This document shows positions 16,850-31,774 of a stretch of 47,104 nucleotides of DNA, piece after piece. The notes below the pieces were generated by a model, which was not told where the DNA came from, did not search any database, and saw only the letters and a list, made by a program, of their open reading frames with translations. Position 1 is the stretch's first letter; every line of letters starts with the position of its first letter. Made by a program: the position numbers and the translations under genes. Source of the stretch: Bacteroidales bacterium (GTDB lineage Bacteria; Bacteroidota; Bacteroidia; Bacteroidales; DTU049); assembly GCA_033809015.1 (NCBI GenBank), contig JAPXMM010000002.1, positions 1 through 47,104 of the forward strand. The letters are read 5' to 3'.

Positions 16850-19725
16850 AATAAAAAAATAATTTCTGGATCGATAATATTGTTATTAATGAACTGCTTA
16901 TAATCTCTAATCTCTAATAATAAAGCATTGTCTACATCAGATAAATCTACTAAAAGCAAACTAGTGGGTATATTGACATCTGTATTCAATATTGTTTTAT
17001 AAATCATGAAATAATCACTAGGCTCTATTTTGCCACCAATGAAATATCGAGTCATTACGATTTCATTTTTCACTAAATCTATATATCCATCACGGCATTT
17101 TCTAATTTTGTAAGTTTCATTATTTGCTAATGTTTGCTGCATTATCCACTGATATGCTATATCTATAAATTTACTAAAAATTTTCTCAAAAGGCTTTTTA
17201 ATTTGCATTAATGGAGTTAAATTTTTAGGAAATTCAGGAACATATTCTTCTAATATTTTCAAAGAATTTACTGCAAAACCATTTTTTTTTATTTCTTGGA
17301 TATCGAAATAATGTATATTTACTTTGGCTTTATGATTTTGAGATATAATGTCATCTGCTAGATTTAATGTACCACTACGATACATATTTATCAGCTTTAA
17401 TTCATCTAATGAAAGGCTAAAATTATCTTTTACTTCTAAATCGAAAATATTTATAAAATGTTTTAGCTCAGAAGCCGATAATTTATAATCTGATTTTAAT
17501 TTTGATATATTGAGATCGCTGATAGCTATCACATTATCATCTGTATCATAAATCCAATGTTTAGTATATAAAATTTGCCAAATAGTAGAATGAAATACAG
17601 CCTCATCATTTCTAATATATGAAGACCAGCTATACTTGCCCCACCAGTAATCATCAGGGAATTGCAAAATCCAATGTAAAAGAAAATTACTTTTTTCTAA
17701 ATTAATATTTGACAAAAAATCTTCTATCCCTTCGATAGTCCAATCATCGATATTCTCCTCTACTATTGGCTTTACATCACTATTTCCTCGCAGATTAGCC
17801 TTTTCATCTTCATTCAAATGATTTTCTATTTTTATTTTCTTAGGAAATTTATTAATATTTAATTTTTCGAATATAGATATGAATTGAGATATAGGTAATT
17901 TATAATTATTTTCATACCATTTAAAATTCACAAAATTTTTATTATAAGAAAAATAATATTCCAATTCTTTAGTTGGTAGATACAACTCATTTGGTTTGCA
18001 CCACTCATTATTTATGTTAGGAATGCATTCGAAACTTTGTAATAATGTATTATCTACCTTATCTAAATTAGCTAAAAACAAATCCCAGAATTTACGATAA
18101 GCTTTTTTCAGAATATATGTAGTCAATTGATGATTAATACCTTTTTGATCATCATAAGGTTTTATTTGTAGAGAATAGAATAAATTAACAATATTTTCAT
18201 TGTTTATAAGTGCTGGATTAATATTCATAGCTGAATCTGGAGCTCCATAAAGGAAAACATTACTCATCTCCTCATCCCAGAGTTTCCATTTATTATCTGC
18301 AGTATATAACCACGGATAATCACTTAAATTATAAAATTTATTCTTATTATTTGGTAAAACTAACTCTGGATTTTGTGCTAAAAGTTCATAAAAAAATTCT
18401 GTCTGCTCAGAATTATAATTTTTATTAAAATATAATTGCTTCAATGCAAAAGCGAAATCATGCTCATCAATTATTCTAATTGATAATTCTTTTTTTATCA
18501 ATTCAGCAAAATTAGTTTTATCAATCAGCCCTATATTAATCCAATTTTTTTTGTTCCATAATTTATTTAAAACATTTTTAGGTATGAGCTCTAGCAACAA
18601 TTTATTTCTAGGGAAAGCAACAAGAGAATGAGGATAATATTTATTATCATTAGTTAAGATAGACTTATCATTTTTTAGAAAATTAATCCATTGCTCTGCC
18701 CATAATTTCTCAATAGGATGCTCATAGTGAGACAAAGTAAAAGCTTCGTATAAATCGGGAGTTAATAAATTTCTATTACGTAACTCTTTTAGAAAATTCG
18801 GAAATAATTTCTTAAGTTGATTCAGCAAAACTTTATTTTCATTAATAGATGAATTGTCCCATGGTATCTGCTCGCGAGTAGGTGTAGTCGTAAAAAAGCC
18901 ATGTACAATAAAAGGTAAATGCAATATTTCTCTAGTAGGGAAAAAAACGAAAAGTGGATTAGTAGCATACAACTTTTCTAATGAAAGAGCCAAAGATAAT
19001 TTTTTTTGATTATTATTAATTTTACTAAGGACCAAATACTTTTCATCAGCTATAGCATCTGACATATTAGTAGATAAAATTACGATTTTACTATCATCAG
19101 TATTAGTTTTTTCAATAAAAAATTTTTCGCGAGTTACATTATTAACAATTTCGATTTTATTTACATAGTCCAGAAAAAGAATAAATCTATAGTCCCAGGC
19201 TTTCACTCTATCCCATAAATCTATAACAGAAATATTTTTTTTAAAAGGAAACCAAAAAAATGTAGTAAAAGGCTCTAAAATATCAATCGGGTCAATAGTT
19301 TCTAATAATTCAAAATCTCGAATTACAAAATCATATCCATCAGAATGTATCTCGGGAGCATCAGTAATGCCAAAAACAGAACGAAAACCTATACCAAATT
19401 TACCTATTTTATTAATATTAGCCAAATGTTGTTTTGTAGATTTACCATATGTAGTAATAGCAATGAAATCATCATCATTGAAAGGATCACCATTATGATA
19501 AATAGCTATGCCATCATTATCAAATTGTATTTTCATTTTGCCCGGTCTGGTTATTCTAGCACAAGCATCCTCAGCATTTTGTACTATTTCATCCAAGAAA
19601 TGAACCGGATCAGCATATAGTGAAGATAAAATTTCTGCATAGCGATTGCCCTTATCTTTATTAGCCTTCACTACCTCTCGTGTCAAAGAAATATATTCCT
19701 GTAAATTATTGAATTTTTTTGGCAT
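16843..19725 (-). CDS. Large (960 aa) sacsin-like GHKL/Hsp90-type ATPase-domain protein, function unknown
   Basis: The N-terminus carries Bergerat-fold boxes: FLDEIVQNAEDA (N box), DNDGIAIYHNG (G1-like) and IGKFGIGFRSVF (G2). The following FFWFPFKKN block resembles sacsin repeat regions. Its stop overlaps the tilS ATG by 7 nt. Confidence 0.7.
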   Translation of the reverse strand: MPKKFNNLQEYISLTREVVKANKDKGNRYAEILSSLYADPVHFLDEIVQNAEDACARITRPGKMKIQFDNDGIAIYHNGDPFNDDDFIAITTYGKSTKQHLANINKIGKFGIGFRSVFGITDAPEIHSDGYDFVIRDFELLETIDPIDILEPFTTFFWFPFKKNISVIDLWDRVKAWDYRFILFLDYVNKIEIVNNVTREKFFIEKTNTDDSKIVILSTNMSDAIADEKYLVLSKINNNQKKLSLALSLEKLYATNPLFVFFPTREILHLPFIVHGFFTTTPTREQIPWDNSSINENKVLLNQLKKLFPNFLKELRNRNLLTPDLYEAFTLSHYEHPIEKLWAEQWINFLKNDKSILTNDNKYYPHSLVAFPRNKLLLELIPKNVLNKLWNKKNWINIGLIDKTNFAELIKKELSIRIIDEHDFAFALKQLYFNKNYNSEQTEFFYELLAQNPELVLPNNKNKFYNLSDYPWLYTADNKWKLWDEEMSNVFLYGAPDSAMNINPALINNENIVNLFYSLQIKPYDDQKGINHQLTTYILKKAYRKFWDLFLANLDKVDNTLLQSFECIPNINNEWCKPNELYLPTKELEYYFSYNKNFVNFKWYENNYKLPISQFISIFEKLNINKFPKKIKIENHLNEDEKANLRGNSDVKPIVEENIDDWTIEGIEDFLSNINLEKSNFLLHWILQFPDDYWWGKYSWSSYIRNDEAVFHSTIWQILYTKHWIYDTDDNVIAISDLNISKLKSDYKLSASELKHFINIFDLEVKDNFSLSLDELKLINMYRSGTLNLADDIISQNHKAKVNIHYFDIQEIKKNGFAVNSLKILEEYVPEFPKNLTPLMQIKKPFEKIFSKFIDIAYQWIMQQTLANNETYKIRKCRDGYIDLVKNEIVMTRYFIGGKIEPSDYFMIYKTILNTDVNIPTSLLLVDLSDVDNALLLEIRDYKQFINNNIIDPEIIFLLW

Positions 19726-20122: not shown

Positions 20123-20977
20123 ATGAAAAAATCTCTAACAATTATTATTTTTTTTATAATTACTTTGATTGCATTTGGGCAGAAACAAATAGGGAAAGAA
20201 ACTTCCGCAATTGTTGCCGAAGGAAAATTGCTTTATAAATCAGAAATGGCTTCGTGGTATGGCACAGACATTTTTCTTGACAAATACAAAGACAAAGCAG
20301 ACGATGTGGGAGGATATTTTTCATATCTCGAAAATAATATCGCAAAGTGTATTTTCTTTTCTAATGATGACAACCCAAAAGTAATTGCGACAATTACTTT
20401 TGACAGCACATACAATGTAAACATAGCTCAAATAGATGGTAATGAAAGAGAATTTACAACTTATGAAAATGATCTTTATACGATTCGTAAAAAAACATTA
20501 AAAGAAGTAAATAGCGATACTCTTATTAAAATGTACAAGAATACAAACATTAATTTGGTACCTCTTATAAATAATAACGAGAAGAAAGTTTATATTTTAA
20601 CTGTACCAGAAAATAATGGAATTGTCATTTTTGGCAATGATTATTTGTTTACTTTTGATAAAAACAATAATCTGGTAAGTAAGAAACAAATTCACAAAAA
20701 CATAATTGTGAATGAATATAGCAAAGGACAGGAAAGTGAGATAGAATTAAAGGAAGCTCTACACACTCATTTAGCATCAACAGGAAAATTCATTACCTCT
20801 ACCGACATTTGTACGCTAATGCTTTACGAGAATTTTGCAAAATGGGAAAAGTATTATGTGATTTCCGATGAATATGTATCAATTTGGAATTGCAAAACTA
20901 ACAAGCTTACTGTTATTACAAGAGAGGTTTGGGATAAAATGAATAAAGACCAAAAAGAGCGACACCTAGAAAAATAA
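20123..20977 (+). CDS. Secreted protein of unknown function, paralog A (pairs with 26867-27661)
   Basis: Sec signal peptide. Blocks shared with the 264-aa paralog: AEGKLLYKSE..W.GTD / AEADLMYKYE..WNSTD, GGY, FGNDYLF, and H....T..ITSTDICT / ITATDICT. Confidence 0.7.
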   Translation: MKKSLTIIIFFIITLIAFGQKQIGKETSAIVAEGKLLYKSEMASWYGTDIFLDKYKDKADDVGGYFSYLENNIAKCIFFSNDDNPKVIATITFDSTYNVNIAQIDGNEREFTTYENDLYTIRKKTLKEVNSDTLIKMYKNTNINLVPLINNNEKKVYILTVPENNGIVIFGNDYLFTFDKNNNLVSKKQIHKNIIVNEYSKGQESEIELKEALHTHLASTGKFITSTDICTLMLYENFAKWEKYYVISDEYVSIWNCKTNKLTVITREVWDKMNKDQKERHLEK

Positions 20978-21137
20978 GCAGACTAAAAGCAGCCGATAAC
21001 AGCATAAAACGGCAAGTGAGGATATATTTGACAAAGCATATACTAATTTTTGGTGTGGTTTGATAGTAAAGTGCTCTGAGATCCACCAGTACGCCAAGTT
21101 CAATACCACTATAGGTTATGAACTCCTAAAAATCGTA

Positions 21138-21262
21138 CAAAATATTTAAAATATCAAAAAAATGAATAATTTTTTAGATAAAATCATAATAAATATGTAT
21201 AATTTTGTTATGAGAATGGTTATAAAAATTAGTAAATATTTTAAAAAAATAAATACATCTTA
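21138..21262 (+). repeat. ~115-bp duplicate of the leader region found upstream of paralog B
   Basis: AATGAATAATTTTTTAGATAAAATCATAATAAATATG...GGTTATAAAAATTAGTAAATATTT matches 26748-26866 (AATGAGTAATTTTTTAGATAAAATCATAATAAGGTATG...GGTTATAAATAAAGTAGTAAATATTT). Confidence 0.6.
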
Positions 21263-21382
21263 AAAATGATAAAAAGTATAAAATATATTCGAAATTTGGT
21301 CGAGCTTATACGCTTTTTGTGCTATTAAGGTGCGATTATAAACAAATTATAAAACATTGACAACAACAAAAACAACAAAATT

Positions 21383-22351
21383 ATGAATATACCAGTAGAA
21401 TATCAAGACCTTTCAGGGACAATTACCAATCAAACTTACAACTTGACACGAATTGCTTTTGCAAAACATTTAGCAATTGCAGGACAAGGTTATGCTCCAA
21501 AACCACATAAATTTATACGGACACTTTCAATGTTTTTTCATTACATCTATTACATACAAAGACAATCATTTAACAGCGATAAATTTTCGGAACCTCTTAT
21601 GATACTTTCTGACCCAACTGAAAAAGGACAATTTTCAAATCTAGCAGGTAAAGCAATAGCTGACTTTCTATCCAAGAAAATAGACCAAAGCTTATTTACT
21701 GTAAACTATGAAGGTGCAATGAAATCACTGAATATAAAAGTTAAAGGAGGACGACCTGACTTACTTGCATTCAAAAAGGATTCTATGTTTGCTATTGAAG
21801 CAAAAGGGTTTTCGGGTGGAGCAGGTAATATGACACAACACATGAATCAATCTCAAACAGGTAAAATTCCAGTTAATTTTTCTGTTGCTTGTGTTTCTTA
21901 CAAACTATACAAAAATGTTAAATGTAAATATCACAAAATATGTAATAACAATGTGTCTTATAACAACGGACTTTTAAGAAAACTTACTCAACAATATTAT
22001 GGTGGATTTTTGGGATTTTTAAACGAAACATATTTCAACTATAGAGAAATAGAAATTCAAAGCGAAAAATTTTATGAAGTTGAGTTATCGCATGAATCTT
22101 TTAAAAAATTGTTCCCTGAAAAATTTACCTTCATATCTTTGGATCCCTTGGAAATTTTTAAGTATTACCTACCTAAATTAATTCTTCCACTTAAAATAAG
22201 AGATTATGCAAAAGATGGTATTACAAGTGAAACTGAACCATTTATTTTTGAGACGAATACAGAAAATAACTTATTATATGTAGACAATGACAGAATTGGT
22301 TTAAAAATTGAATCTACTCCGAAAAGTAAATATTTAAAATTAAAAATTTAA
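21383..22351 (+). CDS. Hypothetical protein with a PD-(D/E)xK nuclease-like motif
   Basis: GGRPDLLAFKKDSMFAIEAKGF fits PD...x14...E-A-K spacing, preceded by a possible helix-acidic element (LSDPTEKGQFSNLAGKAIADFL). I recognise nothing else in the protein. Confidence 0.5.
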   Translation: MNIPVEYQDLSGTITNQTYNLTRIAFAKHLAIAGQGYAPKPHKFIRTLSMFFHYIYYIQRQSFNSDKFSEPLMILSDPTEKGQFSNLAGKAIADFLSKKIDQSLFTVNYEGAMKSLNIKVKGGRPDLLAFKKDSMFAIEAKGFSGGAGNMTQHMNQSQTGKIPVNFSVACVSYKLYKNVKCKYHKICNNNVSYNNGLLRKLTQQYYGGFLGFLNETYFNYREIEIQSEKFYEVELSHESFKKLFPEKFTFISLDPLEIFKYYLPKLILPLKIRDYAKDGITSETEPFIFETNTENNLLYVDNDRIGLKIESTPKSKYLKLKI

Positions 22352-22380
22352 TTAAAAATAATCAAAAAATTAATTATAAT

Positions 22381-22414
22381 TTTGCTTAGAAAAAAAATTT
22401 TTGATGTAAATTTG
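22381..22414 (+). promoter_or_regulatory. Promoter candidate for the 22490-25936 operon
   Basis: TTTG (22381-22384), a 22-nt spacer containing an A8T5 run, then TAAATTTG (22407-22414). The -7 box and flank (ATGTAAATTTG) are identical to the one at 20089-20099. Confidence 0.35.
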
Positions 22415-22489
22415 CAAAAAGATATTATTTGTATATTTATGGTGATGGCGACCACCTTAAGCGGAGCCAAAACAATTAATTAAAAAAAT

Positions 22490-23848
22490 ATGTACAACGA
22501 ACAGTTAGAAAAATTGATTGAAATGGCTCTTATAGATGGAGATCTAACAGAAAAAGAAAAGCAAATTCTTTTCAAAAAGGCAGAGGAACTTGGGGTTGAC
22601 CTTGATGAATTTGAAATGGTACTTGAAGCAAAATTGTTTGAAAAACAGCAAGGCAATAAATCAGATACGTCTACACCTGAATCTGTTAAAATTGGTGATG
22701 TAAAAAAATGCCCAAGATGTAAAGAACCTATACCTGCTTTGAGTAATGTATGTCCTGCTTGTGGTTATGTTTTAAATACAGAATCATCGGTTTCCGATAG
22801 TCAATCATTAGAAGCTTTGATTGAAAATATTGAAAATGACATTATTGAAATAAAATCGTTTCCAAAACCGACTGTAATTTCAACATTAATAAAACAACTG
22901 CCAATCATCTTAATTTTAATTGGTGTAATACTTTTTATAATAGCTACAAAATTTAGCATTATTTATTTGAAATATATACTAATGATTGTTGGCGGTGCTT
23001 GTGTTATAGGTGCTTTTTTTATTTTTAAAAATAAATATATTAAAGAAAAAAGAGAACGAGAATTGAAGGAAAATGGGATTTTTATTACAGAAAAGAATGA
23101 TTCCTCTCTTGAGAAACTAAAAGCAGACTTTGAAAAAAATAGCAGAACTGCCAAAATATTCTATGGTGAAAATAAGAAAGTTTCTAATCTTATTGATGAG
23201 TTCAAGAAAGAAATTCAAGATATTGAGAAGAAACGAAAAAAATTAATGTTTCAAAATTGGATTGTGTATGGAATTATTTGTTTGATAGCCGCTAGTATAT
23301 TATTTATTCCAAAGCAAAAATCTAACTATGAACTTATGATAGAAGAAATACAAGAAAAATTAGCTGAACTAAAAACTAAGGAATATATTATTGATGGAGG
23401 AAAATTTAAAACAACAGGGAATTTCGGTAGTTTGTATCAAATAACCTCTACCAAAGTAGTTGTAAATATAGATTATAAAATATATTATGACGCAAGAGGT
23501 TACTTTTTGTCGATTCAGGGGATAAAGCTAACTCTAAATCCAAACAATAAACTAAAATTAAAGAAAGAAATTACGAAAATAAAAGAAGGATGCCCTTATT
23601 CTAATGAAACCCATTGCGGTAAACTTACTTCGGCACTAATTTTGGAAGATGAAAACAATAATTCAGTTGGAATAAAGAGTCTTGAGTTGTTGAATGGCGA
23701 TGATCCAGATAACAAAGCTCTTTTTTATTCAGAATCAGAAGAAGTTCTATTGTCTTTTAAAGGAGGACCTTACACAAAACAAGATATAGATAAGTTGTCA
23801 AATGTAAAAAATTTCACAATTTCTATAATAATTGCAAAAGAATATTAA
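22490..23848 (+). CDS. Membrane protein: TerB-like N-terminal helices, Zn ribbon, 2 TM, coiled coil, a third TM, and an unknown ~190-aa C-terminal domain
   Basis: LIEMALIDGDLTEKEKQILFKKAEELGVDLDEFEMVLE (TerB/DjlA-N-like); CPRCKEPIPALSNVCPACG; hydrophobic stretches LPIILILIGVILFIIA, ILMIVGGACVIGAFFIF and WIVYGIICLIAASILFI; K/E-rich segment 180-245. Confidence 0.7.
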   Translation: MYNEQLEKLIEMALIDGDLTEKEKQILFKKAEELGVDLDEFEMVLEAKLFEKQQGNKSDTSTPESVKIGDVKKCPRCKEPIPALSNVCPACGYVLNTESSVSDSQSLEALIENIENDIIEIKSFPKPTVISTLIKQLPIILILIGVILFIIATKFSIIYLKYILMIVGGACVIGAFFIFKNKYIKEKRERELKENGIFITEKNDSSLEKLKADFEKNSRTAKIFYGENKKVSNLIDEFKKEIQDIEKKRKKLMFQNWIVYGIICLIAASILFIPKQKSNYELMIEEIQEKLAELKTKEYIIDGGKFKTTGNFGSLYQITSTKVVVNIDYKIYYDARGYFLSIQGIKLTLNPNNKLKLKKEITKIKEGCPYSNETHCGKLTSALILEDENNNSVGIKSLELLNGDDPDNKALFYSESEEVLLSFKGGPYTKQDIDKLSNVKNFTISIIIAKEY

Positions 23849-23852
23849 AAAT

Positions 23853-25199
23853 ATGGGGTTATTCGGGAATAAATCAGAAGGCGGATTAATTGACGTAATC
23901 CGTTGTGACGAACAAGAATATCTTGTTTGGAAATGGCGACCATCTGGTGAAGCAAACACAACAAAAAAAGAAAATTCAATACGCTACGGTAGTAGTTTGC
24001 GAGTTAAAGACGGAGAATTAGCCGTTTTTATGTATCAACAAAAAGACGAGTTGATTCAAGATTACATTTTGGGTCCCTATGATGATACAATAAAAACTGC
24101 GAACTTTCCTGTACTAACCAGCATTGTTGGTGCTGCTTTTGGTGGTGCTTCTCCATTTCAGGCAGAAATCTACTTTATTAATTTATCGGGCAATGTTCAG
24201 ATTAAGTTTGGAGTCCCTTACTTTGATGTATTTGACCCAAGATTTTTAGATTTTGCTGTGCCTATGGTAGCAAGAGGTACAATTACTTTTAATATTACAG
24301 ATTATAAAAGATTTATTAAACTCAATAGACTTATCAACTTTGATATAGAAGATTTTAATAATCAAATTAGAGATGCTGTTACAAGATATATTAAAGGTGT
24401 AATAACAAATATCCCAGCTGACAAAGGAATACCAGTTCTTCAAATGGAACGAAAACTTTTTGAAATTAATGAAATTGTTGCTGCTTACCTCAAACCAATA
24501 CTTGAAAATGATTTTGGTGTAAATATGAAAAGACTTGATCTTGCTGCTATTGAAGTTGATAAAGAAAGTGAGGGTTATGCAGAGTTAAGAAAAGTAACAG
24601 CCGAGCAAACAACAAAAACCATACTAGCCCAAGCTGATGTTAATATAAAGAATATGGAAGACATGCAAAATATTAATGCACAAAATATGGATGAAACATT
24701 GCGTATTCAAAGAGAAGAATCACAGAGGGCACAGAAACTTCAAACCGAAACCAACTTTATCGGCACTCATGCACTCAATCAACAAACAGAGGTTCTTAAA
24801 ACAGGAGCTGAAAGTTTAGGAAATATGGGTAACATGGACATGGGCGAAGGCGGAGGAATGAACCCCGCTGGATTGATTACAGGAATGATGATGGGAGGTG
24901 CAATGGGTAATCAAATGGCTGGTATGATGAACCAAATTGGACAAAATATGAATCAACCCCTAAACTCACCACCTCCACCTCCACAAATCCAATATAGTGT
25001 TTCAGTAAACGGTCAAACAGCAGGTCCATTTAATTGGCAACAACTACAGCAAATGGTACAAAATGGACAACTGACAAAAAATACTTATGTTTGGAAACAA
25101 GGCATGGCAGGTTGGGAATTAGCAGGTAATGTACAAGAACTTGCAAATTTGTTTGAAGCAGTTCCGCCACCCCCACCTCCGCCACCACCAGATGTTTAA
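23853..25199 (+). CDS. SPFH/Band-7 protein of the YdjI (PF13421) type with an M/G/N/Q-rich linker, C-terminal GYF_2 domain and polyproline tail
   Basis: MGLFGNKSEGGLIDVIRCDEQEYLVWKWRP...GASPFQAEIYFIN...ARGTITFNI matches the remembered Band_7_1 pattern. YSVSVNGQTAGPFNWQQLQQMVQNGQLTKNTYVWKQGMAGWELAGNV is the GYF_2 (DUF4339) pattern. The protein ends in P9. I prefer the ATG at 23853 (4 nt after the upstream stop) over the track's TTG at 23832. Confidence 0.85.
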   Translation: MGLFGNKSEGGLIDVIRCDEQEYLVWKWRPSGEANTTKKENSIRYGSSLRVKDGELAVFMYQQKDELIQDYILGPYDDTIKTANFPVLTSIVGAAFGGASPFQAEIYFINLSGNVQIKFGVPYFDVFDPRFLDFAVPMVARGTITFNITDYKRFIKLNRLINFDIEDFNNQIRDAVTRYIKGVITNIPADKGIPVLQMERKLFEINEIVAAYLKPILENDFGVNMKRLDLAAIEVDKESEGYAELRKVTAEQTTKTILAQADVNIKNMEDMQNINAQNMDETLRIQREESQRAQKLQTETNFIGTHALNQQTEVLKTGAESLGNMGNMDMGEGGGMNPAGLITGMMMGGAMGNQMAGMMNQIGQNMNQPLNSPPPPPQIQYSVSVNGQTAGPFNWQQLQQMVQNGQLTKNTYVWKQGMAGWELAGNVQELANLFEAVPPPPPPPPPDV

Positions 25200-25234
25200 T
25201 CCTCAAAATGTTTAATCCGTAAAAATATAACCAT

Positions 25235-25588
25235 ATGAATGAAGATAGTTTTTTTTCAATAAACAGATTAGTTGAATTCGGGATTAGCTTGGCAGTTGCT
25301 CAACAAATGGTACAAACTATGAATCAAGCAATGACAAATATGCAAGTTCCTGGAGCAATGAACTCAATGCAATCAGCCCCACAACAATTTTATTATGCAA
25401 TAATTGAAGGTAAACAAGCCGGCCCATTTTCTGAGCAAGAATTATCTAGATTAATTGCAGAGAAAAAAGTTGTTAAAGAAACGTACATTTGGAAACCAGG
25501 TTTAGCAAATTGGGAAATTGCAGAAAAATTGCCAGAAGTTTTAAAATTGGTTGCTTTAGCTCCACCACCATTTCAACAAAATCAATAG
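25235..25588 (+). CDS. Small GYF_2-domain protein (stand-alone copy of the tail of the preceding SPFH protein)
   Basis: YYAIIEGKQAGPFSEQELSRLIAEKKVVKETYIWKPGLANWEIAEKLPEV, preceded by a Q/M/N-rich segment and ending in APPPFQQNQ. Confidence 0.75.
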   Translation: MNEDSFFSINRLVEFGISLAVAQQMVQTMNQAMTNMQVPGAMNSMQSAPQQFYYAIIEGKQAGPFSEQELSRLIAEKKVVKETYIWKPGLANWEIAEKLPEVLKLVALAPPPFQQNQ

Positions 25589-25591
25589 ATT

Positions 25592-25936
25592 ATGAAAATA
25601 AATTTAGTACAAACTATTATAGCCATAGCGATAAGTTTACTCATCGCTTATGCCTTGTATAATTTTCACGATAGTGAAAACAAAATACTTTTGGGTGCAG
25701 GTAGTTTTGTGTTTATTGCAGTAACATTAATATTTACTTTCGGAATAAGTTTTGAGAAATCAAGAGCAACAACAAATATCAGGGTTGTTTCCGGGATTTT
25801 CTTTGCTATTGCGTTGATAAGCAACTTGATTTTCACCTTTATTCAATTTTCAATTCCAATCTATGTAATAACCAATGGAATTTTGTTGTTAGTTTTTATT
25901 TTGATTGCATACTCATTAAATAAAGCAAAACAATGA
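25592..25936 (+). CDS. Small integral membrane protein (about 4 TM)
   Basis: Four hydrophobic stretches in 114 aa. The start lies 3 nt after the upstream stop. Confidence 0.7.
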   Translation: MKINLVQTIIAIAISLLIAYALYNFHDSENKILLGAGSFVFIAVTLIFTFGISFEKSRATTNIRVVSGIFFAIALISNLIFTFIQFSIPIYVITNGILLLVFILIAYSLNKAKQ

Positions 25937-26340
25937 ATTTAAGAATTATCAAATGCATTTTGTGAATGAATTTGTTACTACGTTTACATATTCCAATATC
26001 CAAAAAAATGAAAGTATCTTTTATATAGTCAGTGGAAGATGAATTTTTTGGTAAATGAGACTAAAAATGACAAATATAAATAAATTAGAAAGATTCTTAA
26101 GTCAATAAACTAAATCAAACATTTCATTCCGATGAAACTTATGTTTAGCTTGATAGGAAATCATCAGAAATCCACTACTGAACATATACTAGATTGGTAT
26201 TACCAACCGTATAAACAAAATGCTCCAGAGATAGTGATATAATAATTTGTTTAGATAGCTGACAATTTGGCAGATTAATTATAGTGGCATATTATTCGCT
26301 AAACAATTGTATAAATGACATTAAGAAATAATATTTACAA

Positions 26341-26718
26341 ATGAAGAATTACTACAAAATTTTGGAAGTAAAACCTACCGCAACAAAAGAAGAAATCAAA
26401 AAAATGTATCGTAAATTAGCGTTTAAATTTCATCCTGACAAAAACCCTAATAATAAGGAAGCCGAAGAAATATTTAAGGAAATAAACGAAGCTAATGAAA
26501 ATCTTACTGATGACACCAAACGAGCAAAGCACGACTATGACTTACAACAGGAAAGAGTAAGACAGGAATCGGAAAGGAGAGCTAAAATGCAGCAAGAATT
26601 CATAGAAAAAATAATAATAGTTGCTGCTGTTATTATTGCCATTGTTGGCGTTGTTTCACTTATTGCAGCTAACAACGTAAATAATGGAACTAGTGCATTA
26701 AAAAAATTAATCCCATGA
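26341..26718 (+). CDS. Tail-anchored J-domain (DnaJ-like) protein
   Basis: [33 protein letters not shown] carries the HPD motif. A charged linker is followed by the C-terminal [22 protein letters not shown]. Confidence 0.85.
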
Positions 26719-26747
26719 ATAATTTTACTTCACCAAACAATCTTTAC

Positions 26748-26866
26748 AAAATGTTTGAAATATTAAACAATGAGTAATTTTTTAGATAAAATCATAATAA
26801 GGTATGAATAAATTTAATTTAGGTACGGTTATAAATAAAGTAGTAAATATTTAAAAAGACACAAAT
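26748..26866 (+). repeat. Leader repeat (partner of 21138-21262), directly upstream of paralog B
   Basis: See 21138-21262. This copy ends at the ATG of 26867. Confidence 0.6.
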
Positions 26867-27661
26867 ATGAAACGGATTACAATTTTATTTTTTTTAGGAA
26901 CACTTTTTCTGAATGTATTCTCTCAAGATGAGAATATACAGTTAAAATTTGATTCAATAATTGCAGAAGCAGATTTAATGTATAAATATGAAAAGACCGT
27001 TTGGAATTCTACAGATTTATTAATGGCTAACAAAAATTTAAAAAAGAATTATGGTGGTTATATTGTTAGACATTCAGCTGATTCAATTTTTGTAACACAC
27101 TTAGACAAAAATCAGAAAGAAAGTATTGCTAGATTCGTATATATTTCTACAAATTTTAATGAGCCTTACCAAGTAAGAATAGAATCTTCACCTTTGTCTG
27201 TCACAGAAAAAGAATTATTTGACATTAAAGTTAAAATGATTAATCAACTTTCTGACAGCAAATATAATGTGACAATACCACCAGGATTTAATCCTAACTT
27301 TGTTTTAATGAAAAATGATACAATATTTAAACTTTATATTATAATGGGGACATCAGAAGCCGGAGTGATACCTTTTGGAAATGATTATTTGTTTATAGCA
27401 AATTCAAAAGGAGATATTGTAGATTGGACTAAATTCCATTCTCGTATTATACCGACAATGGCTAAATATGAAGGAAAAAAAGTAACAAAATCTTCGCATT
27501 CTCATTTGCGGACTACTCCATATATTACAGCAACAGACATTTGTACTTTTAGACTTTATGCACAATACACAGGGCTGGAAGAATTCTCAGTATATTCACC
27601 TGCACTAGGAAAAACGATGACCTATAATTTGAAAACAAATAAAATTGAAATAGAAGAATAA
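26867..27661 (+). CDS. Secreted protein of unknown function, paralog B
   Basis: Signal peptide. It shares the FGNDYLF, TATDICTF and other blocks with 20123-20977. Confidence 0.7.
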   Translation: MKRITILFFLGTLFLNVFSQDENIQLKFDSIIAEADLMYKYEKTVWNSTDLLMANKNLKKNYGGYIVRHSADSIFVTHLDKNQKESIARFVYISTNFNEPYQVRIESSPLSVTEKELFDIKVKMINQLSDSKYNVTIPPGFNPNFVLMKNDTIFKLYIIMGTSEAGVIPFGNDYLFIANSKGDIVDWTKFHSRIIPTMAKYEGKKVTKSSHSHLRTTPYITATDICTFRLYAQYTGLEEFSVYSPALGKTMTYNLKTNKIEIEE

Positions 27662-28020
27662 AAAAAGCTAACAAAGGCTATGTGCAATAAGGGTTTTAGT
27701 GGCTATTTAAGCATTATAGTTCGATCAAAAATTTTTGTAATAATAGAAAAACTCCAAAAGTTGTATAAACATTTTCAAATCTGAATATAACTTTATTCAC
27801 TCCTAAAGTTTAAAAAATTTTAGGAGTTATGAATAATGCCATCATTGTTACAAAAAAGTACGAAATGATAGTCGGGCATTATTGATATTTTATTTAGATA
27901 CATATCGATAACAGCTATGTATATGAAACGTACTAGTTTGAGAGGCTTAGTCTCTACCCACAATAGTAAAAAACGTGAGGCTGAAAGAAATACTTGATTA
28001 GCCAATGAAACCGCTACGTT

Positions 28021-28602
28021 TTATACCGATTGTTGTGAGTTAATGCTTTTTCTTAATTCTTTAGGTAAAAACATATCAATTTCTTCATCGCTAAAGGTTA
28101 ACTCTTCTTTAGATTTCAAAGACTTACTTGCTTTATCATATGCACCACTAGTCGAACGTGGAGCTCCTTGATAAATATTATGCAATTTGCTTTGCAACTC
28201 ATCCCTTTTCTGTATTATTTCATCAATAGTTATTGCATTTGCCTTTATATCAGTCAATAAAGAAAGATATGTTTCTCTAATATTCCAAAGATTTGATGCA
28301 CAATCAACGTGCTTTTGTGCAATTTGACCTAAATCATAATTTTTTAAATATGTATTTAAAGACAAAAGGATAGTTGAAATTAGTGCTGTAATAATCCCGA
28401 CCCATTTCTGATCACCAAAAACACTAACCATAATTCCAGTTGTGGTAATTGCTGATAGAACAATTTGTAAAATTTTAATCTTATTATTTCTACGATTTAA
28501 AATATCAGCACACTTTTCTTGAGTCTTATGTGACCAAGCAACACGTCCAAAGCATTCTCTTATCTGAGATTCTATGATGCTAATTTGGGAATTTTGTTCC
28601 AT
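28021..28602 (-). CDS. SLATT-domain 2TM effector-like protein
   Basis: An N-terminal helix (IRECFGRVAWSHKTQEKCADIL...) is followed by two adjacent TM helices (ILQIVLSAITTTGIMVSVF / WVGIITALISTILLSLNTYL) and a helical C-terminal region ending in TFSDEEIDMFLP. This is the remembered SLATT layout. I chose the start at 28602 (MEQNSQ), which has GGAGAG 7 nt upstream and gives a 23-nt overlap with the upstream gene. Confidence 0.7.
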   Translation of the reverse strand: MEQNSQISIIESQIRECFGRVAWSHKTQEKCADILNRRNNKIKILQIVLSAITTTGIMVSVFGDQKWVGIITALISTILLSLNTYLKNYDLGQIAQKHVDCASNLWNIRETYLSLLTDIKANAITIDEIIQKRDELQSKLHNIYQGAPRSTSGAYDKASKSLKSKEELTFSDEEIDMFLPKELRKSINSQQSV

Positions 28603-29461
28603 ATATTTCTCTCCATTTCTTTTTTGCTTCAACAGACGCATTGTTTTGGTTTTCAATTGCTTCTAAAGAAATATTATAACATCTGTTAGCTTTATATTCA
28701 AACGAACCTTTTCGATTAACTGATTGATTGCTTCCTAGTGCATGCCAATATCTTTGTGCTGTATTCTGTTCTGATAAATATTTAAAAAAATCCCGTGACA
28801 TCCAATCATAATAAAATGTAGATTTATCTTTATGCTCGTAATTTTCCAAGAAATTATAAACCAATGTGTCTATTAATAAGCCTCCCATTGGAACATCCCA
28901 TTTATATTTCCAAGCTCTTGCCATTCGACATAAAGCCTTCATATTTCCTTTAGTTGCATTATTTCTGTCATTAACAGCTTTTATTTCGAGGCGGGGGTCT
29001 GTTTTTTTCCAACTACCTCCATTATTTGTGTCAGGAAATGTAAAACTACCATCAGTATTCTCAAAACATGGTACAAGTTCAAAATTTATATCGTCATTAA
29101 AAAGTATTTGAATTACTTGACCGTCAGCTTTAAGATATGTTTTTGAGTAAGTTTTTTCGATTGATTGTTTTACTGCCTGTAATAACGCAGATTGTCCATT
29201 ATTTAGATGTTTGTCATATTGCAATTTAAGTCTAGATGGCAACATGAAAATCCAATCTATATCACTTGTTACAATATCAGTGTCCCTGCCGTATGAACCA
29301 ACATATAAACTATTTCTAGTCTCACTATTAATATTCCAAAAATCAAGATTTAATTGTTTGGTCATTCGATTGTATCTGCATCTAATCTTATCAACTTTGT
29401 CCTTTTCTATTTTTAGATTATCAACAAAGCTTTGAAATGTTTTTTCTACATTTAATACCAT
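28580..29461 (-). CDS. SMODS-type nucleotidyltransferase (CD-NTase-like second-messenger synthase candidate)
   Basis: Pol-beta NTase signature GSYGRDTDIVTSDIDWIF (GS...DxD) and a third acidic position in INFELVPC. The downstream W..TDP...........G....L.R.AK.WK pattern is typical of SMODS. Confidence 0.8.
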   Translation of the reverse strand: MVLNVEKTFQSFVDNLKIEKDKVDKIRCRYNRMTKQLNLDFWNINSETRNSLYVGSYGRDTDIVTSDIDWIFMLPSRLKLQYDKHLNNGQSALLQAVKQSIEKTYSKTYLKADGQVIQILFNDDINFELVPCFENTDGSFTFPDTNNGGSWKKTDPRLEIKAVNDRNNATKGNMKALCRMARAWKYKWDVPMGGLLIDTLVYNFLENYEHKDKSTFYYDWMSRDFFKYLSEQNTAQRYWHALGSNQSVNRKGSFEYKANRCYNISLEAIENQNNASVEAKKKWREIYGTKFPN

Positions 29462-30160: not shown

Positions 30161-31774
30161 CTATTTTCCTATAATTGAAATTTTTTGCTTGTACATTTTA
30201 TCACCAGCTTTAACACTGATAAAATATATCCCTTCTGGCTGATTTCTCATTTGAACGGTTATCTCGACATCACTGTTTTGAGAATAAGTAAATACTTTTT
30301 GCCCCAAGCTGTTGTATATTTCAATGTATTTATTTGTTTGGTCCAATGCATTATTAAATTTTATTTTAAATGTACCAGAAGATGGATTGGGAAAAACAGA
30401 AAATGCATTATCAGAAGTTAGTTGTTCAATTTGTCCAACGATATCAACGCATCCACTTTTTTCAAAAATATCCACATTCGAAATGACTGGATTAAAATAT
30501 TCAACGTTCCAAGTTGAACTTTCTGTAAAAGGAATGCTCACCAAATCTATCGTAACAGATGTTGAATTGATATTTTCTCCTCCTAAGCTACAATCTATAG
30601 AATTTCCAAGTGAATCTGCTTTTATAATTCCTATCTGTGAGGGAATGTAATATTTAGTAACGAGCAATGGTCCACTTCCAATTATAAACAGACCACTATC
30701 ACTAGTAAATGTAAAATCAGAAAGCATTAGTAAATAACTAAAGCTATTTGCTATATTTCCAGACGAATCAATTTTTAAAATATAATTATTTATATCATAA
30801 TTACTTATAACTGATAAATAATAATCTTTGTAAGAACTTTCTTTAAACTTCCCGATAAGATTAACAAAATTGTTTTCAAAATAAGAATCAGCATCAAATT
30901 GATAGCTTTTTACAATATTTCCCGAAAAATCTGTTTTCAAAATTGTTGTTTTGTCATCATATGAAGTGTAGAATAATAATCCGTCGTTTAAGATAAGAAT
31001 ATCGCCACCATAGCTCTTTGAGCCAGTGTTATCCTTTTTTAACCAATCTATATTCCCAATTGAGTCTGTTTTAAGAATTATAAACTTTTGTTTAATATGA
31101 ATTGAATCAATAAGCTCATTTATACATCCAATGGCAACAAATTCACTATCTGAAATTTGTTTAATACTCGAAAGTGCAGAAGAAACTCCTGCTGAAATTG
31201 TTTTTGTCCATTTAGTATTCCCAATAGAATCAATATTTACAATTAACATTTCAAAATGTGGATAATTAAAAAAGTTTAAATAATAATTACCATCATAATT
31301 AGTTTGATATGTATCAGTAGTAGTAAATCCCGATAATATAAAACCTTTTTCATTGGTTTGTTGAATACTTAAAGCATAATCGTTTTTACCGACATTAATC
31401 TCTTTTGTCCATAGCGTGTCACCTGAAGAATTGATTTTAACGCAAAAAATATTGGTCATAGAATCGTAAGGATTAAATAAATCGCCTGCAAAAACATAGC
31501 ACGAATCGCTTGTTACTGTAGCACAATAAAAGTCTCCCTCGTTACCATAAGTTTTGCTCCATAAAAGATTTCCATTGTCATCCAATTTAGTAATCATGGG
31601 TAAAGAGTCAAAATCGCCTCCGACAAGGAAACCGTTGTCAAGAGTATTAATAACGACATGCCCATTTATTGGAAAATAATTATCGTACAAAACCTTGGAA
31701 TACAAATTTTGTGAAGTTAATTTTGTTGCTGCTAAAATTGTAAGACATGCTAATATAATAAACGTTTTTTGCAT
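30161..31774 (-). CDS. T9SS-secreted repeat protein (beta-propeller-like repeats plus Por_Secre_tail C-terminal domain)
   Basis: Seven or more copies of a D..GN..W.K motif (DDNGNLLWSK, NSSGDTLWTK, DSIGNTKWTK, DSIGNIDWLK...). The C-terminal FSVFPNPSSGTFKI...IEIYNSLGQKV...EGIYFISV is the T9SS sorting-domain pattern. Confidence 0.8.
   Translation of the reverse strand: MQKTFIILACLTILAATKLTSQNLYSKVLYDNYFPINGHVVINTLDNGFLVGGDFDSLPMITKLDDNGNLLWSKTYGNEGDFYCATVTSDSCYVFAGDLFNPYDSMTNIFCVKINSSGDTLWTKEINVGKNDYALSIQQTNEKGFILSGFTTTDTYQTNYDGNYYLNFFNYPHFEMLIVNIDSIGNTKWTKTISAGVSSALSSIKQISDSEFVAIGCINELIDSIHIKQKFIILKTDSIGNIDWLKKDNTGSKSYGGDILILNDGLLFYTSYDDKTTILKTDFSGNIVKSYQFDADSYFENNFVNLIGKFKESSYKDYYLSVISNYDINNYILKIDSSGNIANSFSYLLMLSDFTFTSDSGLFIIGSGPLLVTKYYIPSQIGIIKADSLGNSIDCSLGGENINSTSVTIDLVSIPFTESSTWNVEYFNPVISNVDIFEKSGCVDIVGQIEQLTSDNAFSVFPNPSSGTFKIKFNNALDQTNKYIEIYNSLGQKVFTYSQNSDVEITVQMRNQPEGIYFISVKAGDKMYKQKISIIGK

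What the first reader, a model, noticed from the sequence alone, without database searches (positions are those of the whole stretch)
22381..25936. Unnamed four-gene membrane operon: TerB-like/Zn-ribbon/3TM protein, PF13421 SPFH-GYF protein, small GYF protein, 4TM protein
Seen in sequence: four same-strand ORFs are packed with gaps of 4, 35 and 3 nt behind one TAnnTTTG promoter candidate.
- Gene 1 (452 aa) has a TerB/DjlA-N-like helical pair, a CPxC-x11-CPxC ribbon, two TM helices, a K/E coiled coil, a third TM helix, and a ~190-aa presumably periplasmic domain with no motif I recognise.
- Gene 2 is a YdjI-type SPFH protein (Band_7_1 pattern) extended by a Met/Gly/Asn/Gln-rich linker, a GYF_2 domain and a P9 tail.
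- Gene 3 repeats only that tail module.
- Gene 4 is a 4TM protein.

Established knowledge (from memory): in the Bacillus subtilis pspA-ydjGHI operon, a PF13421 SPFH protein (YdjI) acts with a Zn-ribbon protein (YdjG) and a membrane protein (YdjH) to recruit PspA to damaged membrane.

Inference: this looks like a PspA-less, GYF-decorated relative of that membrane-stress module. It sits inside a mobile-looking island about 2 kb from a SMODS-SLATT pair and next to a PD-(D/E)xK-motif protein. That context suggests a membrane-integrity sensing or abortive-infection role rather than housekeeping. I know of no named defence system with this composition.
Basis: partly seen in the sequence, partly recalled or inferred. 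Interest (0 to 1): 0.8.

Follow-up and report, generated by a model that had tools for sequence, protein, structure and literature searches.

The report
Conserved Bacteroidota SPFH–GYF membrane operon
The four genes are a real operon found, strongly conserved, across the phylum Bacteroidota; it most likely builds a scaffold under the cell membrane and is not a phage-defence system, although nobody has tested its function.

Summary
Four co-oriented genes lie at 22490-25936 with gaps of 4, 35 and 3 nt. Their domains are as described: a TerB-like/Zn-ribbon/3TM protein, a PF13421 SPFH + GYF_2 + P9 protein, a small GYF_2 protein and a 4TM protein.

The same g1-g2-g3-g4 cassette occurs in about 70 of 80 loci fetched from all major Bacteroidota orders. 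Its flanks differ each time. Gene 2 is 57-89% identical across orders, while its synonymous sites are largely randomised, which indicates strong purifying selection.

The cassette is essentially absent from phage and plasmid collections. It has no PADLOC match and no consistent defence neighbours.

In close strains, the CBASS pair and the Tiamat-like gene beside it lie in replaceable segments that stop short of the operon. The defence/abortive-infection reading is therefore not supported.

The link to B. subtilis YdjGHI/SamGHI rests on gene 2 alone. No pspA is in or next to the cassette, and there is no TPM-domain partner.

Gene 1 here is an atypical membrane-spanning variant. Most orthologues are soluble proteins of about 240 aa that share only the N-terminal TerB-like + Zn-ribbon module.

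Best model: a GYF/polyproline-linked SPFH scaffold at the inner membrane with exchangeable adaptor subunits. This is inferred and untested.

The parts
22377..22414 (+). Two TAnnTTTG (Bacteroidota -7-type) promoter candidates, at 22377-22384 and 22407-22414, in the 138-nt gap upstream of gene 1
   Evidence: The motif is frequent in this window (119 matches against about 90 expected), so these are candidates only.
22433..22479 (+). A 47-nt remnant of a conserved leader of about 245 nt that precedes gene 1 in other loci. The upstream terminator-like hairpin of that leader is missing here.
   Evidence: blastn: 85% identity to the L014 leader. Alignment of 12 leaders. No Rfam match.
22490..23848 (+). 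Gene 1 (452 aa). Its parts, in order: a cytoplasmic TerB-like helical hairpin (residues 1-58), a C4 Zn-ribbon (72-95), a TM hairpin (139-178), a cytoplasmic K/E-rich helical region, TM3 (256-274), and a lineage-restricted alpha/beta domain (about 295-452) with a conserved Cys pair, presumably periplasmic.
   Evidence: AF2 pLDDT 82; no PDB fold match; TerB in 17 and Zn_ribbon_3 in 40 of 78 family members; the C-terminal domain has only 8 related clusters among 1.84 billion representatives.
23853..25199 (+). Gene 2 (448 aa). A soluble PF13421 SPFH domain (about residues 1-240), a long helix (about 240-322), an M/G/N/Q-rich linker, P5, a GYF_2 domain (383-430) and a P9 tail.
   Evidence: (GYF matches the GltJ GYF structure 7z3c).
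25235..25588 (+). Gene 3 (117 aa). A conserved N-terminal helix, a GYF_2 domain and a PPPF tail; it is a paralogue of the gene 2 C-terminal module.
25592..25936 (+). Gene 4 (114 aa). A 4-TM protein that starts 3 nt after gene 3. It is the only membrane-spanning subunit present in nearly all cassettes.
   Evidence: no PDB or family match; median g3-g4 gap is 4 nt in 65 loci.

Best explanation
This is a chromosomal, phylum-wide Bacteroidota cassette that most likely builds a scaffold on the cytoplasmic face of the inner membrane.

Proposed working (inferred from domain knowledge):
- The soluble PF13421 SPFH protein (g2) oligomerises through its SPFH domain and long helix.
- Its flexible M/G/N/Q-rich linker presents a GYF domain flanked by polyproline.
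- The small paralogue g3 (helix + GYF + PPPF) is translationally coupled to the 4TM protein g4, and this pair supplies the membrane anchor.
- GYF-polyproline contacts between g2 and g3 cross-link the assembly.
- g1 contributes a conserved cytoplasmic TerB-like + Zn-ribbon docking or regulatory module fused to exchangeable C-terminal parts. In this window that part is a membrane-spanning version with an orphan periplasmic domain, which could couple the scaffold to an envelope signal.

Functionally it would act in membrane organisation or envelope-stress homeostasis, like B. subtilis YdjGHI/SamGHI and other SPFH systems. It would not act as an immune system.

Shown here: the anatomy, the conservation, the gene coupling and the lack of defence linkage.

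Inferred, not shown: all protein contacts, the localisation and the physiological role.
For: - The cassette g1-g2-g3-g4 recurs in 73 (g1), 84 (g2), 83 (g3) and 73 (g4) of the 84 loci held, drawn from Bacteroidales, Flavobacteriales, Cytophagales, Chitinophagales, Sphingobacteriales, Saprospiraceae and Ignavibacteria/Kapaibacteria bins. Flanks are unrelated.
- Tight spacing: median g1-g2 gap 14 nt and g3-g4 gap 4 nt.
- g2 is 57-89% identical between orders on long contigs. Four-fold degenerate sites are 29-58% identical against 28-37% expected at random, which indicates strong purifying selection.
- Polyproline next to the GYF domains is conserved: a P4+ tail in g2 in 70/78, pre-GYF P3+ in 77/78, and a PP tail in g3 in 68/74. 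The linker is 55-80% M/G/N/Q.
- Balaji & Aravind 2007 (PMC2034487) recorded the SPFH+GYF architecture, proline-rich stretches beside bacterial GYF domains, and neighbourhoods with TM and Zn-ribbon proteins.
- YdjI/SamI precedent: a soluble SPFH protein with a low-complexity linker and a C-terminal Zn finger, recruited to the membrane by operon partners (PMC8581546 and bioRxiv 10.64898/2026.02.06.704340).
- Accessory genes inserted between g2 and g3 in other loci are membrane-related: bPH_1, YidD, and small 3TM proteins.
- g2 and g3 have no TM helix and g4 has four.
Against: - No experimental data exist for any member, and no complex prediction could be run.
- The AF2 model of g2 was unusable (pLDDT 45.6), so the SPFH fold rests on the HMM match alone.
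- Prevalence per genome is unknown. Named cultured species are rare among the hits, and some genomes carry two cassettes (L005 and L027). The cassette may therefore be accessory rather than core.
- Variable g1 C-termini, tandem g1 paralogues and an insertion slot are features also seen in conflict systems.
- Some loci lie beside integrases or defence genes (L034, L022).
Confidence: 0.55

Rival explanations
1. An anti-phage, abortive-infection-type system. The SPFH/GYF complex senses membrane perturbation during infection, and the small 4TM protein (or the g1 TM part) acts as a membrane-disrupting effector.
For: - In this window the operon lies between a Tiamat-like (TmtA/sacsin) gene and a type I CBASS pair.
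- Both flanks vary between strains.
- g1 C-termini are hypervariable, with tandem paralogues.
- A few other loci sit near integrases, DUF262, UzuA, PDC-S13 or PD-T4-3 hits.
Against: - None of g1-g4 matches a PADLOC model.
- Flanks of 41 other loci show no recurrent defence family: singletons among 147 proteins, and only generic kinase models among 71.
- The variable segments stop at 26870 and upstream of 20123, so the operon block lies outside them.
- g2 and g3 are under extreme purifying selection across the phylum, which is unlike typical defence genes.
- The cassette is virtually absent from phages, plasmids and IMG/VR.
Confidence: 0.07
2. An SPFH regulator of a specific membrane protein. 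As stomatin and HflK/C do for channels and FtsH, the g2 oligomer encloses and gates g4 (a small channel-like 4TM protein) or a client encoded elsewhere. The GYF domains serve only to tether the client.
For: - The SPFH family precedent is established knowledge and is cited in the SamI preprint.
- g4 is the invariant membrane partner and is tightly coupled to g3.
- Ion-channel genes (Castor/Pollux-RCK type) lie next to the cassette in several Flavobacteriales loci.
Against: - g4 has no similarity to any channel, protease or NfeD family.
- The channel neighbour is lineage-restricted: 4 of 147 flanking proteins.
- No protease is encoded nearby.
Confidence: 0.15
3. A true functional equivalent of YdjGHI. 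The complex recruits an ESCRT-III/PspA-family protein, encoded elsewhere in the genome, to damaged membrane.
For: - PF13421 membership of g2.
- YdjI is needed for PspA foci in B. subtilis (PMC8581546).
- PspA/Snf7 genes exist in some Bacteroidetes (PMC11237479).
Against: - No PspA_IM30/Snf7 family appears in the cassette, in the window genes scanned (20123-29461) or among the commonest flank families of 26 loci.
- The SamI preprint reports developmental roles of SamGHI that do not depend on PspA.
- The C-terminal adaptor differs: GYF here, Zn finger in YdjI.
Confidence: 0.1
4. A component of Bacteroidota gliding motility or type IX secretion, by analogy with the Zn-ribbon + GYF protein GltJ of the Myxococcus gliding machine.
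For: - The only PDB and NCBIfam matches of the GYF domains are to GltJ.
- T9SS-tail proteins are the commonest flank family (6 of 147), and one lies in the window at 30161-31774.
Against: - The GltJ similarity is confined to the GYF domain (E about 1e-3).
- The cassette also occurs in bins labelled Prevotella, Alistipes, Rikenellaceae and Bacteroides, which are not gliders.
- T9SS-tail proteins are abundant in these genomes anyway.
- No gld/spr/por genes are linked.
Confidence: 0.03

Closest known systems
Bacillus subtilis PspA-YdjGHI (renamed SamGHI) membrane-stress module
   Same: - The central protein is a PF13421 SPFH protein without its own membrane anchor.
- Its SPFH domain is followed by a low-complexity linker and a small C-terminal adaptor domain.
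- It is encoded with a Zn-ribbon protein and membrane protein(s) that would tether it.
   Different: - No pspA is present.
- The adaptor is a GYF_2 domain plus polyproline, not a Zn finger.
- The partners are unrelated: g1 is TerB-like with one ribbon, whereas YdjG has two ribbons + NTF2-like + TM and YdjH has a TPM domain.
- There is an extra GYF paralogue (g3) and a 4TM protein (g4).
- The phylum is Bacteroidota, not Firmicutes.
Classical SPFH operons (stomatin/QmcA-YbbJ, YqiK-YqiJ, HflK/C-FtsH, flotillin-NfeD)
   Same: An SPFH-domain oligomeriser is encoded next to a small polytopic membrane partner, and a role in membrane organisation or quality control is presumed.
   Different: - g2 belongs to the Band_7_1 (PF13421) branch and has no N-terminal TM or hairpin.
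- There is no NfeD or protease partner.
- GYF/polyproline modules are absent from the classical systems.
Bacterial GYF-domain proteins described by Balaji & Aravind 2007 (SPFH+GYF architecture; GYF with Zn-ribbon and TM neighbours) and Myxococcus GltJ (ZnR + GYF)
   Same: - GYF_2 domain with the conserved aromatic core and flanking proline-rich stretches.
- Association with a Zn-ribbon and with TM proteins.
- The SPFH+GYF fusion itself was listed in that paper.
   Different: - That work was a domain-level catalogue. It did not describe the four-gene cassette, its phylum-wide conservation, the g3/g4 pair or the variable g1.
- GltJ is a motility protein with a different architecture.
TerB / DjlA N-terminal domain family
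   Same: The g1 N-terminus carries the acidic helical-hairpin repeat (DGxLTEKEKxxL...GxDxDEFE) typical of TerB-like domains, which act close to the membrane.
   Different: - There is only one repeat unit and it scores below the Pfam cut-off here.
- There is no ter operon and no J-domain fusion. A separate DnaJ-TM gene lies 405 nt downstream, but it is conserved only within this species.

Membership tests
   g2 scores 87.6 bits against a cut-off of 24, E 1.1e-24, covering model positions 6-200 of 211. All homologues carry the precomputed PF13421 annotation.
   The AF2 model of g2 had mean pLDDT 45.6 because the alignment was shallow, so no fold search was run. No PDB chain matches by sequence.
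B. subtilis PspA-YdjGHI / SamGHI system | Soluble SPFH protein with a low-complexity linker and a C-terminal Zn finger | tested here: not met
   g2 is soluble and has the linker, but it ends in GYF_2 + P9 rather than a Zn finger.
B. subtilis PspA-YdjGHI / SamGHI system | pspA (ESCRT-III family) in the same operon | tested here: not met
   No PspA_IM30 hit among the ten genes scanned in 20123-29461 or among the 25 commonest flank families of 26 loci.
B. subtilis PspA-YdjGHI / SamGHI system | YdjH-type partner (TPM domain) and YdjG-type partner (two Zn-ribbons + NTF2-like + TM) | tested here: not met
   g1, g3 and g4 have no TPM or NTF2-like hit, and g1 has a single ribbon. Partner architectures are taken from PMC11237479. 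No direct sequence comparison with YdjG/YdjH was possible.
B. subtilis PspA-YdjGHI / SamGHI system | Operon partners recruit the SPFH protein to the membrane | not testable with these tools
   This needs localisation or interaction experiments, or multimer modelling.
GYF_2 domain (PF14237) | HMM above the cut-off, a conserved aromatic core and adjacent proline-rich ligand stretches | tested here: met
   g2 scores 66.3 bits and g3 53.9 bits against a cut-off of 25.8. G-P and two Trp residues are invariant in 50 g3 orthologues. Polyproline is conserved in 68-77 of 74-78 orthologues.
TerB-like domain (PF05099 / DjlA N-domain) | HMM match above the cut-off | tested here: inconclusive
   The window g1 scores 15.2 bits against a cut-off of 24.4 (E 0.027), and the DjlA model gives 2e-5. 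Among 78 family members, 17 hit TerB (best 1e-7) and 11 hit DUF533. Only one repeat unit is present.
Known or candidate anti-phage defence systems (PADLOC-DB 2.0) | Any component matches a defence-system model | tested here: not met
   g1 to g4 have only noise-level hits, E >= 0.0016.
Known or candidate anti-phage defence systems (PADLOC-DB 2.0) | Recurrent location in defence islands or on mobile elements | tested here: not met
   - Among 218 flanking proteins of 41 loci there are only scattered hits, and none is recurrent apart from generic radical-SAM and kinase models.
- Integrases appear in a few loci.
- Phages gave 1 weak hit, plasmids none that were close, and IMG/VR 2 distant hits.
- No background-corrected statistic was computed.
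SPFH-NfeD operons | An NfeD-family partner gene next to the SPFH gene | tested here: not met
   No NfeD hit in g1, g3 or g4.

The most novel reading that the evidence does not exclude
This would be an unrecognised, phylum-wide membrane-scaffold system of the Bacteroidota. A soluble SPFH oligomer is wired to a 4TM anchor through eukaryote-like GYF-polyproline adaptor contacts and a prion-like M/G/N/Q linker. Interchangeable TerB/Zn-ribbon subunits, together with a gene 'slot' between g2 and g3, plug different sensor domains and small membrane proteins into one very strongly conserved core.
Probability: 0.35. Interest if true: 0.65.

Novelty: new variant of a known kind. Interest (0 to 1): 0.45.

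Why it matters
SPFH proteins occur in all domains of life, but their mechanisms are poorly understood. The PF13421 branch has been studied experimentally only in B. subtilis, as far as the literature searched here shows.

This cassette gives a second, architecturally distinct PF13421 system. It is conserved at 57-89% identity across a whole phylum that includes gut bins labelled Prevotella, Bacteroides and Alistipes as well as many environmental lineages.

It suggests a concrete, testable assembly principle: GYF domains binding polyproline tails. It also shows that the PspA connection is not obligatory for this SPFH branch.

For defence-system discovery it is a cautionary case. Lying next to CBASS and a Tiamat-like gene in one genome did not generalise to other genomes.

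Tried and rejected
- **Defence membership.** PADLOC on g1-g4 found nothing. Scans of 218 flanking proteins from 41 loci found no recurrent defence family.
- **Phage or plasmid cargo.** tblastn against INPHARED and PLSDB, plus an IMG/VR scan, gave 1 weak hit, none close and 2 distant hits respectively. PHROGs gave nothing for g2-g4.
- **Recent horizontal transfer as the cause of the high g2 identity.** Four-fold degenerate sites are near random for several pairs, so purifying selection is the main cause. Some pairs (L014, L017, L011) are less saturated, and MAG mis-binning or older transfer cannot be excluded for them.
- **Fold of the g1 C-terminal domain.** The model is confident (pLDDT about 88), but Foldseek against the PDB gave no hit with E < 0.001. 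Profile searches against the PDB were also empty.
- **Profile of g4 against the PDB.** Only noise.
- **Rfam on the g1 leader.** No family matched. RNAalifold found a terminator-like hairpin with little covariation, and folding z-scores were not significant.
- **Looking for the cassette in named model organisms.** A third homologue search returned only MAG names.
- **Literature.** Searches for PF13421, GYF_2, DUF805 RNA and SPFH in defence found no functional study of this cassette.
- **The 'PD-(D/E)xK' neighbour.** No support from Pfam, NCBIfam, PADLOC, PHROGs or PDB sequence searches.

Full report

Yes. The ORF list shows four + strand ORFs:
- g1, 22490-23848, 452 aa
- g2, 448 aa from the ATG at 23853 (the listed ORF starts at an upstream TTG, 23832), ending at 25199
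- g3, 25235-25588, 117 aa
- g4, 25592-25936, 114 aa

Domain matches:
- g2 matches Band_7_1 (PF13421) at 1.1e-24 and GYF_2 at 2e-18.
- g3 matches GYF_2 at 1.6e-14.
- g1 has a C4 Zn-ribbon at residues 72-95, just under the Pfam cut-offs.
- g1 residues 6-58 resemble the last repeat of TerB (E 0.027) and the DjlA N-domain (2e-5).
- g4 matches nothing.

A hydropathy scan gives three TM helices in g1, four in g4 and none in g2 or g3. g3 is a duplicate of the g2 tail (BLASTP 3e-16).

Small corrections:
- The ribbon is CPRC-x10-CPAC, not x11.
- There are two TAnnTTTG candidates (22377 and 22407), but the motif is common in this AT-rich window.
- The 322-aa neighbour called a PD-(D/E)xK protein has no database support.

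**2. The operon is a conserved cassette, not a local accident.**

*Homologue searches.*
- A search with g1 returned hundreds of proteins. Most share only the N-terminal 100-150 residues.
- A search with g2 saturated at 8000 hits, many of them 85-90% identical.

*Gene order and spacing.*
- Contigs that encode g1 relatives have a Band_7_1+GYF_2 gene directly downstream.
- A pattern scan of one genome per GTDB species found 309 relatives of g2, of which 80 loci were fetched.
- BLAST of all window proteins against these loci shows the order g1-g2-g3-g4 in about 70 of them.
- None of the window's other genes travels with the cassette: not the TmtA-like gene, the 322-aa ORF, the two lipoprotein-like genes or CBASS. 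The DnaJ-TM gene appears only in same-species contigs.
- Spacing is tight. The median gap is 14 nt for g1-g2, 23.5 nt for g2-g3 and 4 nt for g3-g4.

*Taxonomic spread.* The labels span Bacteroidales, Flavobacteriales, Cytophagales, Chitinophagales, Sphingobacteriales and Saprospiraceae, plus Ignavibacteria and Kapaibacteria bins. Two cultured isolates carry it: Gelidibacter gilvus and Pseudopedobacter beijingensis.

**3. Conservation pattern.**

- Median identity to the window is 78% for g2, 69% for g3 and 55% for g4. For g1 it is 50%, and over the N-terminus only.
- Using only long contigs as taxonomic anchors, g2 is 57-89% identical between orders.
- At four-fold degenerate sites, identity between the window and other loci is 0.29-0.58, against 0.28-0.37 expected from composition. 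Amino-acid identity for the same pairs stays at 0.8-0.88.
- The high protein identity therefore mainly reflects purifying selection. For the least saturated pairs, transfer or MAG mis-binning cannot be excluded.
- The polyproline stretches on both sides of the g2 GYF domain and at the g3 C-terminus are retained in about 90% of orthologues, as is the M/G/N/Q-rich linker.

**4. Gene 1 is the variable subunit, and the window's version is atypical.**

- Only the TerB-like hairpin and the CPxC...CPxC ribbon are conserved.
- Of 78 g1-like proteins in the loci, 50 have no predicted TM helix. These are mostly soluble proteins of about 240 aa with a helical domain carrying an FP[IV]PN motif.
- Only four, including the window's, have three TM helices.
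- Some loci carry two to four g1 paralogues in tandem.
- AlphaFold models the window protein confidently (pLDDT 82). It shows an N-terminal helical region, the ribbon, a TM hairpin, cytoplasmic helices, a third TM helix and a compact alpha/beta C-terminal domain.
- That C-terminal domain has no PDB fold match. It has only eight related clusters among 1.84 billion representative proteins.
- Positive charges on the cytoplasmic sides and a conserved Cys pair in the C-terminal domain fit an N-in, C-out topology (sequence reading).

**5. Context and the defence hypothesis.**

*In the window.*
- A SMODS cyclase plus SLATT_4 effector (type I CBASS) lies at 28021-29461.
- A sacsin/HATPase protein matching Tiamat TmtA models lies at 16843-19725.

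*In near-identical strains* (g2 about 99% identical):
- The block of 284-aa gene, 322-aa gene, g1-g4 and DnaJ-TM is constant.
- Identity breaks at 26870. There the 264-aa gene, CBASS and the T9SS-type genes are replaced by four unrelated small genes, including an HNH_5 protein.
- In one contig, tilS and the TmtA-like gene are missing upstream.
- So the operon borders variable hotspots but is not part of them.

*In other taxa.*
- 147 flanking proteins from 26 loci gave only singleton PADLOC hits.
- The commonest Pfam families there were T9SS tails, Castor/Pollux-type channels, integrases (4) and ordinary metabolism.
- Another 71 flanking proteins gave only generic kinase-model hits.

*Other evidence.*
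- g1-g4 match no PADLOC model and g2-g4 match no PHROG.
- g2 is essentially absent from phage genomes, plasmids and IMG/VR.

Together with the selection pattern, this argues against a dedicated immune function. It does not formally exclude one.

**6. Comparison with the known.**

- B. subtilis YdjI/SamI is a soluble SPFH protein with a low-complexity region and a C-terminal Zn finger. YdjG and YdjH bring it to the membrane, and it is needed for PspA foci (PMC8581546; bioRxiv 10.64898/2026.02.06.704340).
- YdjG has two Zn-ribbons plus an NTF2-like domain and a TM segment. YdjH has a TPM domain (PMC11237479).
- Here only g2 is homologous. The adaptor domain is GYF instead of a Zn finger, no pspA is present, and g1 and g4 lack the YdjG/YdjH domains.
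- The cassette therefore plausibly works like YdjGHI, as a tethered PF13421 scaffold, but it is not a member of that system.
- Balaji & Aravind 2007 already listed the SPFH+GYF fusion, proline-rich flanks, and GYF neighbourhoods with TM and Zn-ribbon proteins (PMC2034487). They did so at domain-catalogue level only.
- The only solved relative of any part is the GYF domain of Myxococcus GltJ (7z3c).
- No paper found describes this four-gene cassette or tests it.

**7. Most likely mechanism (inference).**

- g2 oligomerises through its SPFH domain and the long helix at about 240-322.
- Its GYF domain and the g3 GYF domain bind the conserved polyproline tails in trans.
- g3 is co-translated with g4 and docks on it, giving the membrane anchor.
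- g1 adds a TerB/Zn-ribbon module with lineage-specific outputs. In this organism that output is a transmembrane link to a periplasmic orphan domain.
- In other loci, genes inserted between g2 and g3 encode bPH_1, YidD and small 3TM proteins. This fits a membrane-organisation theme.

I put about 0.55 on this scaffold model, 0.15 on a narrower 'SPFH gates g4 or a client' version, 0.10 on PspA recruitment in trans, 0.07 on defence and 0.03 on motility/T9SS.

**8. Verdict.**

This is a real and notably well-conserved operon without experimental characterisation. It is a new variant of the SPFH-scaffold kind rather than a new kind of system, and the defence interpretation is not supported. Interest is moderate (0.45). 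The strong conservation across a major phylum and the GYF-polyproline wiring make it worth testing, but nothing categorically new is shown.

Noticed in passing
window 28021-29461 (- strand); variable segment 26870-32970: A type I CBASS pair: a SMODS cyclase (PADLOC 1.8e-129) and a SLATT_4 2TM effector. It lies in a segment that near-identical strains replace with four unrelated small genes, including an HNH_5 protein. This looks like a strain-level defence hotspot between the DnaJ-TM gene and the rsmI-like gene.
   Followed up: partly
window 16843-19725 (- strand): A 960-aa sacsin-type HATPase protein that matches Tiamat TmtA models (E 3e-38, partial coverage). In one close strain (L087) it and tilS are missing between the transporter and the 284-aa gene.
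   Followed up: partly
L014 2728-2971, L056 9010-9255, L011 9007-9255, L017 257-500 and eight more loci; window 22433-22479: A leader of about 245 nt upstream of gene 1, with 75-96% nucleotide identity to the L014 copy in bins labelled as different orders. It contains a strong hairpin followed by a U-tract (terminator/attenuator-like) and matches no Rfam family. The window keeps only the last 47 nt. It is a candidate cis-regulatory RNA of the cassette.
   Followed up: partly
L009 4637-4704, L037 5002-5070, L006 2958-3026 (similar sequences in L008, L034, L041, L084): The Rfam 'DUF805 RNA' motif (RF03081) sits directly after the gene 2 stop wherever extra genes are inserted between g2 and g3. 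It also precedes unrelated small membrane-protein or lipoprotein genes elsewhere in the same contigs. It is absent from the window, where the g2-g3 gap is 35 nt.
   Followed up: partly
L027 (contig DAONZU010000125.1, same MAG as L005): The MAG that holds a contig (L005) 99.8% identical to the window over 23896-26870 carries a second, diverged cassette (g2 74% identical) with two different long g1 paralogues. Genomes can therefore hold more than one copy.
   Followed up: no
window 20123-20977 and 26867-27661: Two paralogous secreted or lipoprotein-like genes (29% identity, E 4e-25) with no family match bracket the block 322-aa ORF, g1-g4 and DnaJ-TM. The downstream copy lies in the strain-variable segment.
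   Followed up: partly
window 26341-26718: A small J-domain protein with a C-terminal TM helix follows the operon after 405 nt and is constant within the species but not in other taxa. This is curious because the g1 N-terminus resembles the non-J part of DjlA. It is probably coincidence.
   Followed up: partly
L001, L033, L038, L048 (downstream of g4); L037, L041 (nearby): A Castor/Pollux-type RCK ion-channel gene of 632-634 aa lies next to the cassette in several Flavobacteriales/Crocinitomicaceae loci. This may be lineage synteny or a functional link.
   Followed up: no
L089, L090 (IMG/VR contigs): Two contigs classed as viral encode a distant g2 relative (about 46-47% identical) preceded by a weak Zn-ribbon match to g1, with no separate g3 or g4 match.
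   Followed up: partly
window 21383-22351: A 322-aa ORF directly upstream of the operon. It is conserved only within the species block.
   Followed up: partly
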